Below, piece after piece: positions 3,655 through 54,439 of a stretch of 64,000 nt of DNA. How positions within the stretch are numbered: the stretch's first letter is position 1; every line of letters starts with the position of its first letter. Source of the stretch: Thermoplasmatota archaeon (GTDB lineage: Archaea > Thermoplasmatota > E2 > DHVEG-1); NCBI GenBank assembly GCA_029939595.1, contig JAOZSQ010000004.1, positions 1,872-65,871 on the forward strand, read 5' to 3'. A program made the position numbers and the translations under genes. The notes under the pieces were generated by a model. The model made no database searches. It had not been told where the DNA came from and was given only the letters and a program-made list of their open reading frames with translations.

Positions 3655-5028
3655 ATGCAAGAAATTTTTCCATTTGAAACGATGCTAGTGATTTCCAGCC
3701 TTGCAGTATTCCTTTTATTGGGGGTTGTTTTAAGGGCGAAAATATCTTTTTTCCAGCGATTTCTCATTCCAAGCTGCCTTATAGGTGGGCTTATATTAAT
3801 GATTTTTATAAATCTCAAAGTTATTGTTTTATCTCATTCTACACTTGAAATCCTTGTATATCATCTATTCAATCTTTCATTTATCTCAGTTGGTTTAACG
3901 CCTGTGAGTAAATCCTTAGAACAAAAACATGGAAAATCTAGGATTAATGGGGCACTTGGAATGGGATTAATTCAAGGGGTTATATTCCCTATTCAAGCAA
4001 TCATTGGTGGTTTAATTACACTGTTATTTATCTATGCAGGTTTTGAACTTTTTTCAACATTTGGTTTTTTTGCACCACTTGGTTTCATTGAAGGCCCAGG
4101 TCAAGCCCTTTCAATGGGTCAAACTTGGGAACAGATATCTGCAACAATTTATACAAATGCAACAACTGTTGGATTGACATTTGCAGCAATTGGATTCTTT
4201 TTTTCATTTTTTGTTGGTGTTCCATTGGTTAATTGGGGTATTAAAAAAGGACTTTCAGATCAGACCCCTAAAATTCTTCCAACTGATTTTGTCAAAGGAA
4301 TAATATCAAAAAATCAAGAGAAAAAACCGGCAGGATTTGAAACAACACATCCTGCTAATATTGATGCATTATCCTTTCATTTCACACTTGTTGGACTTAC
4401 ATTTCTTATCACATATGGATTTATAAAAATTATAACTGAGTATTTACCCGATGATATTGCAAAAATGATATGGGGATTTTTCTTTTTCTTTGGTATCGTT
4501 TTTGCTTTATTGATCAAAGGTATTATGAAAAAATTCAATATGATTCATCTTATTGATAGAGAAATTCAAAAAAGAATTACAGGATGGTCAGTTGATTTTT
4601 TACTTGTTGCAACCATTGCTGCTATTCAGGTTGCTGTCATCTGGAAATATCTTCTCCCTATTTCAATAATATCTGCATTAACTGGAACTATCTCTCTTTT
4701 TGTTGTCGTCTTCATCGGTAAACGAATTTGGAAGGAGTATGCATTTGAGCGAACTGCAGGGATTTTTGGAACGGTTACAGGAACTGTACCTAGTGGATTA
4801 TTACTAGTAAGAATACTAGATCCAGATTTTAAGACACCTGCGGCTATTGACCTTGGGCTGACAAGTATTTTTGCAGCTCCTTTTATTCTTGTAGGTATGT
4901 TACTAGTTAATGCACCTGTACTTTGGGGTTGGAGTGTTCAGCAAACCTTAATCGCTTTTTTAGTTATGATGATGATTGCACTGGCTTTGATGAAAGTTTT
5001 TAGATTATGGGGAAAACCTCAATATTGA
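3655..5028 (+). CDS. gltS: Sodium/glutamate symporter (GltS family)
   Basis: Multi-TM protein; FLIPSCLIGG, GFIEGPGQALSMG, GTVTGTVPSGLLL.R..DP re-entrant motifs. Confidence 0.75.
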   Translation: MQEIFPFETMLVISSLAVFLLLGVVLRAKISFFQRFLIPSCLIGGLILMIFINLKVIVLSHSTLEILVYHLFNLSFISVGLTPVSKSLEQKHGKSRINGALGMGLIQGVIFPIQAIIGGLITLLFIYAGFELFSTFGFFAPLGFIEGPGQALSMGQTWEQISATIYTNATTVGLTFAAIGFFFSFFVGVPLVNWGIKKGLSDQTPKILPTDFVKGIISKNQEKKPAGFETTHPANIDALSFHFTLVGLTFLITYGFIKIITEYLPDDIAKMIWGFFFFFGIVFALLIKGIMKKFNMIHLIDREIQKRITGWSVDFLLVATIAAIQVAVIWKYLLPISIISALTGTISLFVVVFIGKRIWKEYAFERTAGIFGTVTGTVPSGLLLVRILDPDFKTPAAIDLGLTSIFAAPFILVGMLLVNAPVLWGWSVQQTLIAFLVMMMIALALMKVFRLWGKPQY

Positions 5029-5863: not shown

Positions 5864-6035
5864 TCTTTTTTCATTTTGATGTATAGAACAATAATAAAAA
5901 AAGTCTTTGATACTATATTTTTTTCAATAGTCAAGTTTTTTCAAAAAAACAAGTAAATAAGAATTATTATGGACTGTTACCAATTTTTAAGTAACTATGC
6001 AAGAGTAAATAAATTATAATTAACAATGGTTAATA

Positions 6036-6123
6036 TGGTACAGGTCAGAGGGAACTTCGATTTATAATGTATCCCATTACTATCCCTTTTGATATACTAA
6101 TAAAAAACCTTTGAACTGTACCA
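6036..6123. repeat. 88-bp element bounded by imperfect 16-bp inverted repeats (MITE-like or hairpin)
   Basis: TGGTACAGGTCAGAGG (6036-6051) vs CCTTTGAACTGTACCA (6108-6123): 14/16 reverse-complement match, within a ~0.9 kb gene-free gap. Confidence 0.5.
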
Positions 6124-6799
6124 CCATCCCTCCGATATTTGATTTTAATATTAATGAAATAATGGAATATTATTACATTTCAATTTTAAAAAGAATAGTT
6201 CATACGTTTAAATACGCCTGTTCATCATCCAGAATGCTTATTTATCGAAAAAATTATCTTTTCTAATTTTTTCCTTCATTATTGATCACTCCACCTAATT
6301 TATACTTCATTTTTCCACATTCTAATATACAAAATAAAATTACATTATTCTTTCATTATTTTTCTACTAATCTCAATACTTTCACTAACCCCTTTAAATG
6401 ATATTTAAACAATAAACAACGATACCATTATTAGAAAGACGATAAATCCGGGGGAAATCGCCAGAGAGGGTGCATCCCTATATCTCCTTACCTGGCCTTT
6501 CTGCCAATTTTTAATGCATATCTTGTTTTTTCACCATTGTTATTTTCATCTAACGTATAAGAAGAAAAAGTAGGTAATAGAAATTATCGCCAACATATAT
6601 TATCTTGAGGGAAGCGGAATTTTTTTTAATTAATTTATTGATGAATGGATTAAATCAGTTTTCTATAAAATATTCAATCATATAAAACTGGTTTGATTAT
6701 CTTCTAAAAAAAGATCATATATAGATAAAATAAGACAATGTTTATATAATCAATTCATCATCTTTTTTTCAATTAATAAAATTAGGGAGACAAGAAATT

Positions 6800-49999: not shown

Positions 50000-50106
50000 T
50001 AGTCTCCTGGTAGATGGTAAAAAAGATATTTATACTAAGGATGTATTTACTCACCCAAATCAAATATGATCAAAGAACTATTTTACAGAAAGATTTTGTG
50101 GTGCCT

Positions 50107-51060
50107 ATGAAAATCGAAGGAATAGGTTTTGGAAAAGCTATTTTATTTAATGAACATTTTGTAGTGTATGGTGTACCTGCAATAGTCTCAGCAATTGGTA
50201 AATACACAGTAGCAAAAGCAACACCTTATGAAAAACCAGAACTAAATTTAGAAGATAACAGACAAGCAACACCTCGCTATAAAGAGGATAAAAAGGATCA
50301 GCAATTAGATTCCATTCGTAGAATCATTGAAAAAATGGAAATTGATTTTTCAAATGGTGGAGTTAATGTCGAACTTGCGGGTAATCTTTATTGTGCTAGT
50401 GGTATTGGAGCAAGTGCTGCATCTTGTGTGGCAATGGCTAGAACGCTTTCAAATTATTATGGACTTGATTTAACAGATGATCAAATCAATGATATTGCTT
50501 TTGAAGGTGAAAAAGGATACCATGGAACTCCCTCGGGAATTGATAATACTGCATCTACCTATGGCGGACTTATATGGTTTGAAAAAAAGCAGGAAAACAT
50601 AATGGAAAAAATATCACTAGCTAACCCCATTGAAATTGTCATTGGAAACACTGGAAAAGTAGCTGATACTACAAAAGCTGTTGCTGGTGTACGAGAAAGA
50701 AAAGAGGCAAATCCTGATAAATATCAAACGATTTTTAATCGAGCTGAAAACATTGCATATCTTGCTAAACAGGCTTTTCATGATGAGGATTATCATGAAA
50801 TAGGAAAGCTAATGACTGAGAATCATAAATTATTGCAACAAATTGAGGTGTCATCTCGTGAACTTGATTTCCTTGTAAGACTTTCAAAAGAGTATGGTGC
50901 ATATGGTGCAAAACTTACAGGTGGAGGACTTGGTGGAAACATCATTGCATTGACACCTGGAAGAAACCTTCAGGAAGAAGTAGCAAATGCAATTGAAAAA
51001 GAAGGATTTCAAACAGTGAAAACCCAAATTGGTGTCAGGCGTGATGGTGACTTAGAATGA
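50107..51060 (+). CDS. mvk: Mevalonate kinase (GHMP family)
   Basis: GKAILFNEHFVVYG, GIGASAA, HGTPSGID, GAKLTGGGLGG; start moved to ATG 50107. Confidence 0.9.
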   Translation: MKIEGIGFGKAILFNEHFVVYGVPAIVSAIGKYTVAKATPYEKPELNLEDNRQATPRYKEDKKDQQLDSIRRIIEKMEIDFSNGGVNVELAGNLYCASGIGASAASCVAMARTLSNYYGLDLTDDQINDIAFEGEKGYHGTPSGIDNTASTYGGLIWFEKKQENIMEKISLANPIEIVIGNTGKVADTTKAVAGVRERKEANPDKYQTIFNRAENIAYLAKQAFHDEDYHEIGKLMTENHKLLQQIEVSSRELDFLVRLSKEYGAYGAKLTGGGLGGNIIALTPGRNLQEEVANAIEKEGFQTVKTQIGVRRDGDLE

Positions 51061-52367
51061 AGTTAAGAGAGTTTCTATCTCATCTTGAAGAAAAAGGAAA
51101 ACTTGTACGTATTACAAAACCTGTGTCTCATGAATATGAAATAGCAAATATTATTTATTCATTAAATGAAAAACCTGTTATTTTTGAGAACGTAAAAGGA
51201 TTTGATTATCCGGTTTTTGCAGGAATAACCTCTGATCGGGACATTATTGCAGAAGGTATTGGTACAACAAAAGATAATCTTCTAGCTTCTCTTGTTGATG
51301 CGCTTCAAAATCCGGTGAAACCTGATATGATAGAAAATGCTCCCTGTCAGGAAGTAATCATCAATGAACCAGATCTTTCAAAGTTTCCAATTTTACATCA
51401 TTTAAATGGGGATGGAGGGAGATACTGCTCAGCAACTGTTGCAACCATTAAAGACCCAGATACAGGAAGAAATGTATCATATCATCGTTTGATGGAAATT
51501 GGAAAAAATAAATTTACAGCCAGATTAATAAAAAACCGACAAACCCGGACAACCTATGATAAAATTGAGGGTGATTTAGAGATGGCGATCTGTTTTGGAA
51601 ATTCTGTTGCCACAATGGTAGCAGCCTCTCTTGGACCACCATCAGGAGTTGACGAGTTTTCTATTGCAAATGCTCTTGATAAAACAGATCTTGTGAAATG
51701 TGTAACAAAAGATCTTGAAGTACCTGCAGATTCAGAAATAATATTTGAGGGAAGACTTACAAGAGATTTAGATAACGAAGGGCCATTTGTTGACCTAACT
51801 GAAACAAGAGATTTTGTACGTCAAGAACCCGTCTTTGTCATTGATTGTATCACCCATAGAAAAGATGCAATGTATCAAGCATTGATCCCGGGACGTCTTG
51901 AACATAAAACATTAATGGGAATGCCAAAAGAACCAACAATATTTAATGAAGTAAATAAGGTTGTAGATTGTAAAAATGTATATGTAACAATGGGCGGGGG
52001 AAGCTGGCTACATGGTGTTGTTCAAATCAATAAACAACATGATGATGATGCAAAGAAGGCAATTGATGCATCATTTGAAGGTCATAAAAGCATGAAACAT
52101 GTTACAATTGTAGATGAAGATGTTGATCTCTTTGATCCTCTTGCAGTTGAATGGGCAATGGCCACACGATTTCAAGGGGATAGCGATATGGTTGTCAAAG
52201 TGGATCAATCAGGAAGCAGTCTGGATCCCTCTGGAAAACATGAAGAAGGCAAAAAAACCTTGACAACAAAAATTGGTTTCGATGCAACGATTCCAGGTCA
52301 TGTTGATAAAAAGAAATATGAGATTGTAAAGTATCACAAAGTTGATCTAGATGATTACCTCCGGTGA
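51057..52367 (+). CDS. UbiD-family prFMN decarboxylase, probable trans-anhydromevalonate 5-phosphate decarboxylase
   Basis: NVSYHR, EGPFVD, EH..LMG, VDEDVD, SSLDPS, KIGFDAT; overlaps mvk and is clustered with AcnX genes. Confidence 0.85.
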   Translation: MKLREFLSHLEEKGKLVRITKPVSHEYEIANIIYSLNEKPVIFENVKGFDYPVFAGITSDRDIIAEGIGTTKDNLLASLVDALQNPVKPDMIENAPCQEVIINEPDLSKFPILHHLNGDGGRYCSATVATIKDPDTGRNVSYHRLMEIGKNKFTARLIKNRQTRTTYDKIEGDLEMAICFGNSVATMVAASLGPPSGVDEFSIANALDKTDLVKCVTKDLEVPADSEIIFEGRLTRDLDNEGPFVDLTETRDFVRQEPVFVIDCITHRKDAMYQALIPGRLEHKTLMGMPKEPTIFNEVNKVVDCKNVYVTMGGGSWLHGVVQINKQHDDDAKKAIDASFEGHKSMKHVTIVDEDVDLFDPLAVEWAMATRFQGDSDMVVKVDQSGSSLDPSGKHEEGKKTLTTKIGFDATIPGHVDKKKYEIVKYHKVDLDDYLR

Positions 52368-52668
52368 AGGAAAATATAAGGTTACTCTTGAAGAAAAAAA
52401 AATCGGAAAGGATATTCTATACATATTAAACGGGGGAGAAAAACCTCACATTGGATGTATTGTAATTTGTGAGGTAGGAGCGGATCCTCAAGTAATTTCA
52501 TTAGGGTCTCATTTTGATCATATTGTTCTAGATCCTATTGCAAAAATGGGGTGTCAGAAATATAAAACAACCGTTGTTGCAATTGGTGGAATACATATCG
52601 ATAATGCAACAAAAAAAGAAATTGATATAATAATACATCATTGTAACTTCATTCAAAAGCAACTCTAA
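52351..52668 (+). CDS. LpdD-like small protein (putative prenylated-flavin chaperone)
   Basis: GGEKPHIG, H.D, VAIGGIHIDNAT..EI motifs; overlaps the UbiD 3' end. Confidence 0.6.
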   Translation: MITSGEGKYKVTLEEKKIGKDILYILNGGEKPHIGCIVICEVGADPQVISLGSHFDHIVLDPIAKMGCQKYKTTVVAIGGIHIDNATKKEIDIIIHHCNFIQKQL

Positions 52669-52871
52669 CAACTTTTCATTTGCTCCTTGTTATCTTATCT
52701 AAAATCTATTGATTGATATCTCGATTTAATTAAAATGATTTCAATTTATTATTAAAGATATGATAAATAGATTTATAAGAGGATATATTTTCTCATTTTT
52801 ACTATTCTTTCATATGATAAAAAATATGTACATCTAAATGTGAACTAAAACCAATAAAAGAGTTTGATATC

Positions 52872-54059
52872 ATGTATTTAAATAGAGATGAAGAGGCAAT
52901 ATTAAATGGGGAAAATGGCGAAGTAATGCAAAGGTTATTTCGACTGCTTGTTAGACTTGGAGAAATATATAATGCAGAAAATATGATTCCTGTGGGCTCT
53001 GTTCAAGTGGCCGGAGTTTCATATAAATCCGTTGATGACCCCGGTCTTGCATTTTTAGAGGATCTTTCGAAACAAAACGCAAAAGTAAAAGTCCTCACAT
53101 TTTTAAATCCAGCAGGAATGGATCTTGAAGCATGGGAAGAAATTGGTTTTCCAAAAGATTTTGCAGAAAACCAACTACGAATCATGGATGCATTTAAAAA
53201 AATGGGCATAGTAATCACCTCAACATGCACACCATATCTGGCAGGAAATCTCCCTCGTTTTAGAGAACATATCGCATGGTCAGAATCATCTGCTGTGAGT
53301 TTTTCAAATTCTGTGATTGGTGCACGAACAAATAGGGAAGGAGGACCTTCTGCACTTGCAGCAGCAATATGTGGTCGAACACCTAATTATGGACTTCATC
53401 TATGGGAAAATCGTCAACCAACCATTGCAATTCATGTTGATGCGGAGTTGAAATATGCAGCAGACTATGGTGCACTAGGGTATCATGTTGGAAAACAAAT
53501 CAAAAATAAAATCCCATATTTTACAGGAATTAAAGATGCAAACACCGATCTTTTAAAGGCACTTGGTGCGGCAATGGCTGCATCTGGTGCGGTAGCTCTC
53601 TATCACATAGAAGGTTTAACACCTGAGGCAGATCTTGTAGAATCAAAAGATCTGGAAAAGATTACAGTAAGCAAGAATGACATTTCAGACACATATAATA
53701 CCTTAAATAAAGGATCTGATCCCGATATTGTTATTTTAGGTTGTCCACATGCATCACTCCGAGAGATAGCGACATTATCTGAAAAGGTATCTGGAAAGAA
53801 ATTAAAAAAACCAGTATGGATCTGTACATCTCGAATGATGAAGGAAGCATCTAATCGCATGGGTTTTACACAGATTATTGAAAATGCAGGTGGAAAAATT
53901 GTTGCAGATACTTGTATGGTTGTATCGCCTATTGAACAGATGGGATTCAAAAAAACAGGAGTAAACTCTGGAAAAGCTGCAAACTATATGCCAGGTTTTT
54001 GTAAACAAGAGGTTGTGTATAAGAATATTGACGATCTCATAGAGGAGGTTTTAGAATGA
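52872..54059 (+). CDS. AcnX large subunit (DUF521), probable phosphomevalonate dehydratase large subunit
   Basis: SVQVAGVSY, TCTPY, WSESSAV..NSV.GARTNREGG, GCPHAS, DTCMVVSP. Confidence 0.9.
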   Translation: MYLNRDEEAILNGENGEVMQRLFRLLVRLGEIYNAENMIPVGSVQVAGVSYKSVDDPGLAFLEDLSKQNAKVKVLTFLNPAGMDLEAWEEIGFPKDFAENQLRIMDAFKKMGIVITSTCTPYLAGNLPRFREHIAWSESSAVSFSNSVIGARTNREGGPSALAAAICGRTPNYGLHLWENRQPTIAIHVDAELKYAADYGALGYHVGKQIKNKIPYFTGIKDANTDLLKALGAAMAASGAVALYHIEGLTPEADLVESKDLEKITVSKNDISDTYNTLNKGSDPDIVILGCPHASLREIATLSEKVSGKKLKKPVWICTSRMMKEASNRMGFTQIIENAGGKIVADTCMVVSPIEQMGFKKTGVNSGKAANYMPGFCKQEVVYKNIDDLIEEVLE

Positions 54060-54439
54060 AAGGCAGGATGATTTCACCGGGGAAAGCAGAAGGAGAAGCC
54101 ATTGTGTCTACTGAACCTATTGGATTCTATGGCGGTATTGATATAAACACAGGAATTGTCATTGAAAAAGGTCACATGCTTGAAGGACAAAGCGTTAAAG
54201 ATAAAATCCTAGTTTTTCCAAATGGAAAAGGATCAACTGTTGGATCCTATGTTATTTATGGTATCGCAAAAAACAATGTTGGACCAAAAGCAATTATAAA
54301 TAAGGAAACAGAAACCATTGTTGCAACAGGTGCCATTTTAGCAGGTGTACCATGTGTCGATGGAATTGATATTGATCAAATTAAATCAGGAGACATTCTT
54401 GAAGTTAATGCTGATGAGGGTGAAGTAAATATTAAATAA
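54056..54439 (+). CDS. AcnX small subunit (DUF126), probable phosphomevalonate dehydratase small subunit
   Basis: FYGGID, KGSTVGSYV; ATGA overlap with the large subunit. Confidence 0.9.
   Translation: MKGRMISPGKAEGEAIVSTEPIGFYGGIDINTGIVIEKGHMLEGQSVKDKILVFPNGKGSTVGSYVIYGIAKNNVGPKAIINKETETIVATGAILAGVPCVDGIDIDQIKSGDILEVNADEGEVNIK

What the first reader, a model, noticed from the sequence alone, without database searches (positions are those of the whole stretch)
52351..52668. LpdD-like putative prFMN chaperone embedded in the archaeal mevalonate operon
Seen: a 105-aa ORF overlapping the UbiD stop by 17 bp, with GGxxPHIG and GGIHxDxA motifs. Established: Lactobacillus LpdD, from the gallate decarboxylase (UbiD) system, has been described as a prenylated-flavin-binding protein. 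Inference: this is an unrecognised accessory component of archaeal isoprenoid synthesis that matures or delivers prFMN to the anhydromevalonate-phosphate decarboxylase. The family call is from motif memory.
Basis: partly seen in the sequence, partly recalled or inferred. Interest (0 to 1): 0.62.

Follow-up and report, generated by a model that had tools for sequence, protein, structure and literature searches.

The report
LpdD-type flavin chaperone in mevalonate operon
A small gene overlapping the end of the decarboxylase gene in this archaeon's mevalonate (lipid-precursor) operon is a clear relative of bacterial LpdD, which binds the decarboxylase's prenylated-flavin cofactor; it is therefore probably a cofactor-loading helper missing from the published pathway scheme, and it occurs only in some archaeal lineages.

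Summary
A 105-aa ORF at 52351-52668 overlaps the stop of the UbiD-type gene by 17 nt and carries GGEKPHIG and GGIHIDNA.

The family call also holds:
- Pfam PF21758 (LpdD_chaperone/PAC_bac) scores 77 bits.
- The best PDB sequence hits are Lactobacillus plantarum LpdD.
- The AlphaFold model (pLDDT 97.9) superposes on LpdD at TM 0.83-0.87.
- The three Mn2+ ligands of LpdD are kept.

The gene sits in the operon mevalonate kinase, UbiD-type decarboxylase (AMPD), LpdD-like, AcnX large, AcnX small. AMPD lay immediately upstream in 29 of 29 related loci. This genome has one UbiD, one UbiX and no MVD-type decarboxylase.

Other archaea show independent linkage to the cofactor system. Three genomes of a small-genome phylum have UbiX-AMPD-LpdD-PMDh. 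In Thermoproteota, 22 of 26 copies abut UbiX.

The gene is not universal: it occurs in 40 of 301 Thermoplasmatota, whereas UbiD occurs in 267. Published AMPD reconstitutions work without it.

My best reading is a prFMNH2-binding helper dedicated to AMPD. This is inferred from homology and linkage, with no biochemistry. I found no paper linking LpdD to the mevalonate pathway, although databases already name the family. I file it as a new member of a known kind, of moderate interest.

The parts
50014..51060 (+). Mevalonate kinase (GHMP kinase). The real start is probably the ATG at 50107.
   Evidence: TIGR00549 mevalonate kinase scores E 7.2e-71, 238.9 bits against a cut-off of 163. Pfam finds GHMP_kinases_N and GHMP_kinases_C. 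A homologue aligns only from residue 38, and the sequence upstream of 50107 is AT-rich.
51057..52367 (+). UbiD-family decarboxylase, taken to be anhydromevalonate phosphate decarboxylase (AMPD). It is the only UbiD homologue in the genome.
   Evidence: Pfam finds UbiD_N, UbiD and UbiD_C. TIGR00148 scores 346.8 bits. The own genome holds a single UbiD match. The AMPD assignment rests on the operon with mevalonate kinase and AcnX; activity was not tested.
52351..52668 (+). LpdD-family protein (105 aa), a putative prFMNH2-binding chaperone.
   Evidence: PF21758 scores 77.4 bits, E 8.9e-22. PDB phmmer finds LpdD 8p4w/8pzh/8po5 at E about 9e-6. The AlphaFold2 model has pLDDT 97.9. Foldseek gives TM 0.83-0.87 to LpdD.
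52432..52455 (+). GGEKPHIG loop. H33 corresponds to LpdD H35, a Mn2+ ligand.
   Evidence: The alignment places query H33 on chain residue 35. H33 is invariant in 46 of 46 family members. The ligand role comes from PMC10865409.
52510..52518 (+). H54-F55-D56, corresponding to LpdD H61-K62-D63 (Mn2+ ligands H61 and D63).
   Evidence: D56 aligns with D63. H54 is kept in 45 of 46 members, and position 56 is D or E in 45 of 46. LpdD has a 5-residue insertion just before this motif, so the H54-to-H61 pairing rests on the motif and not on an unambiguous alignment.
52585..52608 (+). GGIHIDNA loop. G80 and H82 are invariant across the family.
   Evidence: LpdD has AGIHVNQ at the aligned position.
52669..52871 (.). 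A 203-bp AT-rich spacer between the LpdD-like gene and the dehydratase genes. It contains a TATA-like TTTATAA (52773-52779) and a T5 run.
   Evidence: Sequence read. In most relatives these two genes abut or overlap instead. Promoter or terminator function was not tested.
52872..54059 (+). Phosphomevalonate dehydratase large subunit (AcnX).
   Evidence: PF04412 AcnX scores E 4.6e-160.
54056..54439 (+). Phosphomevalonate dehydratase small subunit (AcnX swivel domain).
   Evidence: PF01989 scores E 3e-32. NF003046 scores 179 bits against a cut-off of 163.

Best explanation
The ORF encodes a genuine member of the LpdD family (Pfam PF21758), the small dimeric proteins shown in Lactobacillus plantarum to bind reduced prenylated FMN (prFMNH2) and to help activate UbiD enzymes.

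In this genome its client would be the only UbiD enzyme present: the mevalonate-pathway decarboxylase that converts trans-anhydromevalonate 5-phosphate to isopentenyl phosphate.

Proposed mechanism, all inferred:
1. UbiX, encoded elsewhere in the genome beside the lipid enzyme GGGP synthase, makes prFMNH2.
2. The LpdD-like protein captures this oxygen-labile cofactor at its conserved His/His/Asp metal site and surface loops.
3. It hands the cofactor to newly made apo-decarboxylase, raising the fraction of active enzyme.

The 17-nt overlap with the decarboxylase gene suggests the two are made together by translational coupling.

Shown here: family membership, fold, conserved ligands, and conserved gene linkage to UbiD or UbiX in several archaeal phyla.

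Inferred: prFMNH2 binding, transfer to the decarboxylase, and any need for the protein in vivo.
For: Family membership:
- PF21758 scores 77.4 bits against a cut-off of 27.
- The best PDB sequence matches are LpdD, E about 9e-6.
- The model has pLDDT 97.9 and superposes on LpdD at TM 0.83-0.87, rmsd about 2 A, against 0.55-0.63 for PAC3/PAC4/Pba3-4.
- The LpdD Mn2+ ligands H35/H61/D63 (PMC10865409) correspond to H33/H54/D56, which are kept in at least 45 of 46 family members.

Linkage:
- In 29 of 29 related loci the gene lies directly downstream of the AMPD-type UbiD, and it overlaps that gene in most of them. Mevalonate kinase is detected upstream in 23 of them, and AcnX follows directly in 22.
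- In a 301-genome phylum sample, 24 of 24 checkable pairs have the same 470-bp spacing to the UbiD core domain, allowing for 467 and 581 bp in two of them.
- The gene stays with AMPD when the dehydratase genes are separated: the 203-bp spacer here, 3.0 kb in L004, 1.7 kb in L016, and no dehydratase gene within 6 kb in L002 and L012.
- In another phylum, 3 of 3 positive genomes have MVK-UbiX-AMPD-LpdD-PMDh.
- In Thermoproteota, 22 of 26 copies abut UbiX and 25 of 25 determinable copies have UbiX within 4.1 kb.
- Bacterial members sit in LpdD-UbiX-UbiD operons.

Own genome: one UbiD, one UbiX, and no MVD-family decarboxylase. AMPD is therefore the only possible UbiD client and appears to be the only route to isopentenyl phosphate.
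Against: - There is no biochemical evidence for this protein or any archaeal member.
- The gene is absent from most UbiD-bearing genomes of the same phylum: 40 of 301 have it, against 267 with UbiD. One close AMPD (68% identical, L065) is followed by a Cys-rich DUF3795 gene instead.
- The Methanosarcina mazei pathway works in E. coli with AMPD plus UbiX only (PMC12547664), so the helper is not generally required.
- Even for L. plantarum LpdD, earlier work reported little or no role in gallate decarboxylation, and the later study found only modest activation (PMC10865409).
- In Asgard archaea the family is common (104 of 251 genomes), but 18 of 20 sampled copies are not next to UbiD, UbiX or mevalonate genes.
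Confidence: 0.72

Rival explanations
1. The protein is a permanent, stoichiometric subunit of the decarboxylase, needed for structure or catalysis, and not a transient cofactor chaperone. This would parallel the way VdcD is an integral part of the VdcCD vanillate decarboxylase.
For: The overlapping reading frames are conserved across relatives, which suggests coupled and roughly equimolar synthesis. IMG annotates some members as 'gallate decarboxylase subunit D'. The position next to AMPD is fixed in 29 of 29 loci.
Against: L. plantarum LpdD is encoded apart from LpdC, next to the UbiX homologue (PMC10865409). In Thermoproteota the gene abuts UbiX and not UbiD. AMPDs from organisms or constructs lacking it are active. 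VdcD is an unrelated family, and this protein gave no NCBIfam match at all.
Confidence: 0.15
2. The protein is a catalytic maturase that oxidises AMPD-bound or free prFMNH2 to the active iminium form without oxygen, a step that strict anaerobes must solve somehow.
For: All archaeal lineages found with the gene are sediment or anaerobic groups by record title or earlier scan note; this link is an inference. The LpdD paper raises oxygen-independent maturation as an open problem. The invariant His/His/Asp/His cluster could bind a redox or acid-base metal.
Against: The published LpdD work found binding of the reduced cofactor only and no evidence of a catalytic role. The known maturase PhdC belongs to a different, flavin-reductase-like fold. 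Many anaerobic archaea with UbiD lack the gene.
Confidence: 0.08
3. The protein serves the neighbouring AcnX-type dehydratase, for example in Fe-S cluster handling or assembly, or it is a proteasome-assembly-type chaperone as the older Pfam name suggests.
For: In most relatives the gene lies between the decarboxylase and dehydratase genes and overlaps both. The fold is distantly related to PAC3/PAC4/Pba3-4.
Against: When the dehydratase genes move away, the gene stays with the decarboxylase. In other phyla it is linked to UbiX. TM to the proteasome chaperones is only 0.55-0.63, against 0.83-0.87 to LpdD. This protein has no PAC4 Pfam hit, and there are no proteasome genes nearby.
Confidence: 0.03

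Closest known systems
LpdD (lp_0272) of Lactobacillus/Lactiplantibacillus plantarum, the prFMNH2-binding chaperone of the LpdB/LpdC gallate decarboxylase system (PDB 8PO5, 8PZO, 8PZH, 8P4W; Pfam PF21758)
   Same: Same Pfam family and same fold (TM 0.83-0.87). The GGxxPHIG and GIHxD loops and the His/His/Asp metal ligands are conserved. Both are small single-domain proteins, and both are encoded with genes of the UbiD/UbiX system.
   Different: Sequence identity is only about 23-25%. The protein is shorter (105 aa) and lacks a 5-residue insertion before the HxD motif. The partner is a mevalonate-pathway decarboxylase acting on an aliphatic substrate in an essential pathway, whereas LpdC is a catabolic aromatic-acid decarboxylase. 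The gene overlaps the UbiD gene, whereas lpdD sits next to the UbiX homologue lpdB. The host is an archaeon. No biochemistry exists.
Eukaryotic proteasome assembly chaperones PAC3/PAC4 and yeast Pba3/Pba4
   Same: Distantly similar beta-sandwich fold flanked by helices (Foldseek TM 0.55-0.63).
   Different: This protein has no significant sequence or Pfam PAC4 match. The conserved His/Asp loops are an LpdD feature. The genomic context is a cofactor-dependent decarboxylase, not the proteasome.
VdcD / 'D subunits' of hydroxyarylic acid decarboxylases, and PhdC/YclD prFMN maturases
   Same: They are also small accessory proteins encoded beside UbiD enzymes that affect their activity.
   Different: They belong to unrelated families and folds. 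VdcD is an integral subunit of the active VdcCD oligomer (PMC10865409), and PhdC is a flavin-reductase-like oxidative maturase (PMC13040415). This protein matched neither type in Pfam or NCBIfam.
Published archaeal mevalonate pathway (MVK, PMDh = AcnX large and small, AMPD = UbiD homologue, UbiX/PFS, IPK) as reconstituted from Methanosarcina mazei
   Same: The same enzymes surround the gene here: MVK, AMPD, PMDh large and PMDh small.
   Different: The published scheme and the M. mazei reconstitution construct contain no LpdD-type protein. Here one is inserted between AMPD and PMDh.

Membership tests
LpdD / Pfam PF21758 (LpdD_chaperone, formerly PAC_bac) | Match to the family HMM above the curated threshold | tested here: met
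   77.4 bits against a cut-off of 27, E 8.9e-22, covering profile positions 2-108 of 115. The whole-genome scan finds this one copy.
LpdD / Pfam PF21758 | Direct sequence similarity to the characterised L. plantarum LpdD | tested here: met
   phmmer against PDB gives LpdD chains as the top three hits, E 8.6e-6 to 9.6e-6 over residues 6-93. The next hit has E 0.059.
LpdD / Pfam PF21758 | LpdD fold | tested here: met
   The AlphaFold2 model has pLDDT 97.9 and pTM 0.88. The Foldseek top six hits are all LpdD, with TM 0.83-0.87 and rmsd 1.9-2.3 A.
LpdD / Pfam PF21758 | Mn2+-binding residues H35, H61 and D63 of LpdD | tested here: met
   H33 and D56 align directly with H35 and D63. H54 matches H61 through the H-x-D motif next to a 5-residue indel. 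The positions are kept in 46/46, 45/46 and 45/46 (D or E) family members.
LpdD / Pfam PF21758 | Genomic association with UbiD and/or UbiX | tested here: met
   The gene overlaps the UbiD gene here. The pairing is conserved in 29 of 29 related loci. In Thermoproteota the gene abuts UbiX. Bacterial members sit in LpdD-UbiX-UbiD operons.
LpdD / Pfam PF21758 | Specific binding of reduced prFMN and enhancement of UbiD activation | not testable with these tools
   This needs anoxic biochemistry with purified protein.
LpdD / Pfam PF21758 | Homodimer | not tested
   Only a monomer model was made.
PAC3/PAC4 proteasome assembly chaperones (Pfam PF16093 PAC4) | HMM match, and association with the proteasome | tested here: not met
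   This protein has no PAC4 hit at E<=0.01. Structural similarity is only distant, TM 0.55-0.63. There are no proteasome genes in the neighbourhood. Some Asgard members do give weak sub-threshold PAC4 hits.
VdcD-type decarboxylase D subunit | Match to a VdcD-type model | tested here: not met
   This protein gave no NCBIfam match of any kind at E<=0.01.
Anhydromevalonate phosphate decarboxylase (the neighbouring gene 51057-52367) | UbiD-family enzyme encoded with mevalonate kinase and AcnX-type phosphomevalonate dehydratase, in a genome without an MVD-type decarboxylase | tested here: met
   UbiD domains and TIGR00148 are found. The operon context is shown. It is the only UbiD in the genome. 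PF22700 finds nothing except a sub-threshold hit on the mevalonate kinase itself. Catalytic activity cannot be tested here.

The most novel reading that the evidence does not exclude
In these anaerobic archaeal lineages the LpdD-like protein may be more than an optional helper. It could be an obligatory partner, made together with AMPD, that allows loading and oxygen-independent maturation of prFMN. On that reading, all membrane-lipid synthesis in these organisms would depend on it. Lineages lacking it would need a different, still unknown solution, for example the divergent PAC4-like genes seen upstream of ubiX-ubiD in some Asgard genomes.
Probability: 0.15. Interest if true: 0.7.

Novelty: new member of a known kind. 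Interest (0 to 1): 0.45.

Why it matters
The archaeal mevalonate pathway makes the precursors of all archaeal membrane lipids. Its decarboxylase step depends on prenylated FMN, a cofactor that is hard to load and mature.

A dedicated cofactor chaperone encoded within the operon would add a component to the published pathway scheme. It would give LpdD-family proteins a role in an essential biosynthetic pathway, beyond the aromatic-acid decarboxylation system in which LpdD was characterised.

It would also offer a simple, testable way to improve heterologous use of the ATP-saving archaeal pathway in isoprenoid production, by co-expressing the helper.

The patchy distribution raises a further question: how do the many archaea without this gene activate the same enzyme?

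Tried and rejected
- **Locus search with the 46-sequence alignment.** It failed because no stretch was conserved enough. A 13-sequence alignment worked.

- **Locating the PF21758 copy of Methanosarcina acetivorans.** The control line reports that it exists, but I could not find where it lies.
  - Cluster look-ups gave no organism names.
  - A name is not accepted as a search centre.
  - The third homologue search did not list it.
  - The four long-contig candidates I looked up had bacterial-looking neighbours such as LysR regulators and flagellin.
  - So its position relative to AMPD or UbiX remains unknown.

- **Giant multi-repeat hits P0127 and P0203 from the representative search.** They are compositional artefacts with no PF21758 domain. 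P0124 had the same kind of multi-stretch match but is too long for the family scan and was not checked.

- **A replacement gene next to UbiD in LpdD-negative Thermoplasmatota.**
  - Their UbiD homologues are only about 39% identical to this AMPD and are not clustered with mevalonate genes.
  - One closer AMPD (L065) is followed by a DUF3795 Cys-rich gene.
  - No analogue was established.

- **Rejected readings.** I rejected the proteasome-chaperone reading and the dehydratase-helper reading for the reasons given under rival explanations.

Full report
**Observation**

The window holds a 105-aa ORF at 52351-52668 on the + strand. The upstream ORF, 51057-52367, is a UbiD-family protein. Its stop codon ends at 52367, so the two frames overlap by exactly 17 nt.

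The ORF is not a chance frame. It has 230 homologues at E<=1e-3 in the 5.8-billion-protein collection, and nearly all of those listed are 105 aa long. It also folds with mean pLDDT 97.9.

**Family**

Four independent tests place the protein in the LpdD family.
- Pfam PF21758 matches at 77.4 bits against a cut-off of 27, E 8.9e-22. This family was called PAC_bac in the local copy and is labelled LpdD_chaperone in the precomputed annotations.
- The only significant PDB sequence matches are the Lactobacillus plantarum LpdD chains 8p4w, 8pzh and 8po5, E about 9e-6.
- The model's six best structural matches are all LpdD, with TM 0.83-0.87 and rmsd about 2 A. The proteasome chaperones PAC3, PAC4 and Pba3/4 follow at TM 0.55-0.63.
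- The paper that characterised LpdD identifies H35, H61 and D63 as Mn2+ ligands and reports H35 and H61 as strictly conserved (PMC10865409).
  - Here H33 and D56 align with H35 and D63.
  - H54 sits two residues before D56, as H61 does before D63. LpdD has a 5-residue insertion just upstream, so this one pairing rests on the motif.
  - Across 46 diverse members, H33 is kept in 46, H54 in 45, D or E at position 56 in 45, and H82 in 46.

The family is small: 327 clusters at 50% identity among 1.84 billion representatives. UniRef already names bacterial members 'prenylated flavin chaperone LpdD', and IMG names some archaeal ones 'gallate decarboxylase subunit D'. NCBI entries for the close relatives read 'hypothetical protein'.

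**Local context**

The surrounding genes are:
- mevalonate kinase, 50014-51060 (TIGR00549, 239 bits; its real start is probably 50107);
- the UbiD-type gene;
- the LpdD-like gene;
- a 203-bp AT-rich spacer;
- AcnX large subunit, 52872-54059;
- AcnX small subunit, 54056-54439.

This is the lower archaeal mevalonate pathway: mevalonate kinase, phosphomevalonate dehydratase and anhydromevalonate phosphate decarboxylase, as laid out in PMC12547664.

The genome (2.64 Mb, 93% complete) has one PF21758 copy and one UbiD. It has one UbiX on another contig, downstream of a PcrB-family GGGP synthase and an inositol-monophosphatase-family gene. It has no MVD-family decarboxylase; the only PF22700 hit is a sub-threshold one on the mevalonate kinase itself. 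The UbiD-type enzyme is therefore the only possible UbiD client of the LpdD-like protein. It also appears to be the only route to isopentenyl phosphate. An earlier scan note places the organism in Thermoplasmata, MBG-D group; I did not test that.

**Conservation of the pairing**

A scan of species-representative genomes returned 52 loci. In all 29 loci whose LpdD-like protein is at least 38% identical to this one, the AMPD-type UbiD lies immediately upstream.
- Mevalonate kinase is detected upstream in 23 of them. Several of the others are cut by contig ends.
- AcnX large and small subunits follow directly in 22.
- The AMPD/LpdD overlap is 17 nt in 11 loci. In most others it is 20-26 nt if an upstream TTG is taken as the start. 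The LpdD-like stop usually overlaps the AcnX start.

The gene stays with the decarboxylase when the dehydratase genes are displaced. The separation is 203 bp here, 3.0 kb in L004 and 1.7 kb in L016, and no dehydratase gene lies within 6 kb in L002 and L012.

In an even sample of 301 genomes of the phylum, PF21758 is present in 40. These are 35 of 36 genomes of the window's own family plus five from four other families. UbiD is present in 267. For the 24 positive genomes whose UbiD coordinates were printed, the two matches lie on the same contig and strand. The spacing is 470 bp in 22 of them, 467 bp in one and 581 bp in one. The one LpdD-positive genome without a UbiD match has the gene 390 bp from a contig end.

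**Other archaeal phyla**

| Group | Genomes with PF21758 | Context of the copies examined |
|---|---|---|
| Thermoproteota | 26 of 301 | 22 of 26 abut UbiX; 3 have it 1-4 kb away; 1 is at a contig end; none has UbiD in the fetched flanks (up to about 6 kb each side) |
| Asgard archaea | 104 of 251 | 2 of 20 sampled copies lie beside UbiX and the AMPD-PMDh cluster |
| Bacteria | not surveyed | At least 9 of 20 loci have UbiD or UbiX within 6 kb; some have LpdD-UbiX-UbiD operons |

- In Thermoproteota the adjacent copies are tail to tail with UbiX wherever I read the strands.
- Ten of the 20 Asgard copies sit in a conserved block: glycine-cleavage P1, P2, LpdD-like, ThiS-like, MiaB-like. That block looks like plain synteny within one lineage.

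The recurring partners of this family are therefore the enzyme that uses prFMN and the enzyme that makes it. This supports a cofactor-related role independently of the homology to LpdD.

**Limits**

- The gene is missing from about 85% of UbiD-bearing genomes of the phylum.
- Sampled LpdD-negative genomes have UbiD homologues only about 39% identical to this AMPD and not clustered with mevalonate genes.
- One AMPD at 68% identity is followed by a DUF3795 Cys-rich gene instead.
- The M. mazei pathway functions in E. coli with AMPD and UbiX alone.
- For L. plantarum LpdD, earlier work reported little or no role in gallate decarboxylation. The later study found better activity at basal UbiX levels and modest activation of E. 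coli UbiD, with binding of the reduced cofactor only and no sign of catalysis.

The protein is therefore best seen as a lineage-specific helper and not a universal pathway enzyme.

**Mechanism proposed**

1. UbiX makes prFMNH2.
2. The LpdD-like protein binds it at the conserved His/His/Asp site and its loops.
3. It passes the cofactor to apo-AMPD made from the same transcript.

Family membership and gene linkage are shown here. Binding, transfer and physiological need are inferred.

The rivals considered are a stable subunit (0.15), an oxygen-independent maturase (0.08), and a helper of the dehydratase or proteasome (0.03).

**Literature and novelty**

No paper in the searchable library combines LpdD with archaea or the mevalonate pathway. 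The LpdD paper itself and the PhdC maturase paper each mention neither. The library lacks most subscription journals, so this shows absence from what I could search and does not prove the link is unpublished.

Earlier notes of this scan report the same arrangement in at least 13 other genomes. These are leads, not evidence, but my independent tests agree with them.

I classify the finding as a new member of a known kind: a known chaperone family with a new client and pathway.

**Not done**

- I could not find the position of the Methanosarcina copy.
- No complex model was made.

Noticed in passing
window 52669-52871: A 203-bp AT-rich spacer separates the LpdD-like gene from the AcnX dehydratase genes; it holds a TATA-like TTTATAA and a T5 run. 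In most relatives these genes abut or overlap. The operon may be split into two transcription units here.
   Followed up: partly
window 50014-50107: The mevalonate kinase ORF as listed starts at 50014. A homologue aligns only from residue 38, which corresponds to the ATG at 50107, and the sequence before it is AT-rich with a TATA-like element. The true start is probably 50107.
   Followed up: partly
own genome contig C74:44-2059 (L054): The genome's UbiX is the last gene of a run on one strand: an inositol-monophosphatase-family gene, a PcrB-family GGGP synthase, then UbiX. This ties the cofactor synthase to archaeal lipid synthesis. It lies at the very end of its contig.
   Followed up: partly
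L065 (G015:C47) 4181-4528, minus strand: In a related genome without LpdD, the AMPD gene (68% identical to this one) is followed by a 115-aa Cys-rich DUF3795 protein and a possible acetyltransferase-like ORF that I did not scan. The dehydratase genes lie 3.8 kb away.
   Followed up: partly
L031, L035, L075-L099 (Thermoproteota): In 22 of 26 genomes the LpdD-like gene abuts UbiX; they are tail to tail wherever I read the strands. In the two loci whose neighbours I inspected (L031 and L035), it lies downstream of ORFs that in L035 are topoisomerase VI B and A (L031 has ORFs of matching sizes that I did not scan). No UbiD lies in the fetched flanks.
   Followed up: partly
L046, L101-L109, L111 (Asgard, Thor-like): PF21758 is present in 104 of 251 Asgard genomes. 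In one lineage it sits in a conserved block: glycine-cleavage P subunit 1, subunit 2, LpdD-like, ThiS-like, MiaB-like radical-SAM protein. It has no prFMN genes nearby.
   Followed up: partly
L118 (G819:C1) 6073-6381 and L110 (G1022:C28) 6000-6308: Two Asgard loci place a PF21758 protein beside UbiX and the AMPD-PMDh cluster. In L118 it is directly upstream of UbiX-AMPD-PMDh, and in L110 directly downstream of UbiX. The L118 copy is divergent (35.6 bits) and both also give weak PAC4 hits, so they bridge the LpdD and PAC4 families.
   Followed up: partly
P0200 (335 aa): A fusion of an LpdD-family domain with a MobA-like nucleotidyl-transferase domain.
   Followed up: no
L120, L121, L125, L126: A conserved bacterial cluster on one strand: CoA-transferase, LpdD, UbiX, UbiD, a xanthine-dehydrogenase-type molybdoenzyme, then an alcohol dehydrogenase and a LysR-type regulator. 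The substrate is unknown.
   Followed up: no
L122-L124: A widespread marine bacterial LpdD-family gene (14 contigs) lies next to a hexapeptide-repeat protein, with no UbiD or UbiX within 8 kb.
   Followed up: no
P0124, P0127, P0203: Very long proteins scored as having 16-17 matching stretches. The two that could be scanned (P0127 and P0203) have no PF21758 domain and look like compositional false positives. P0124 is too long for the family scan and was not checked.
   Followed up: yes
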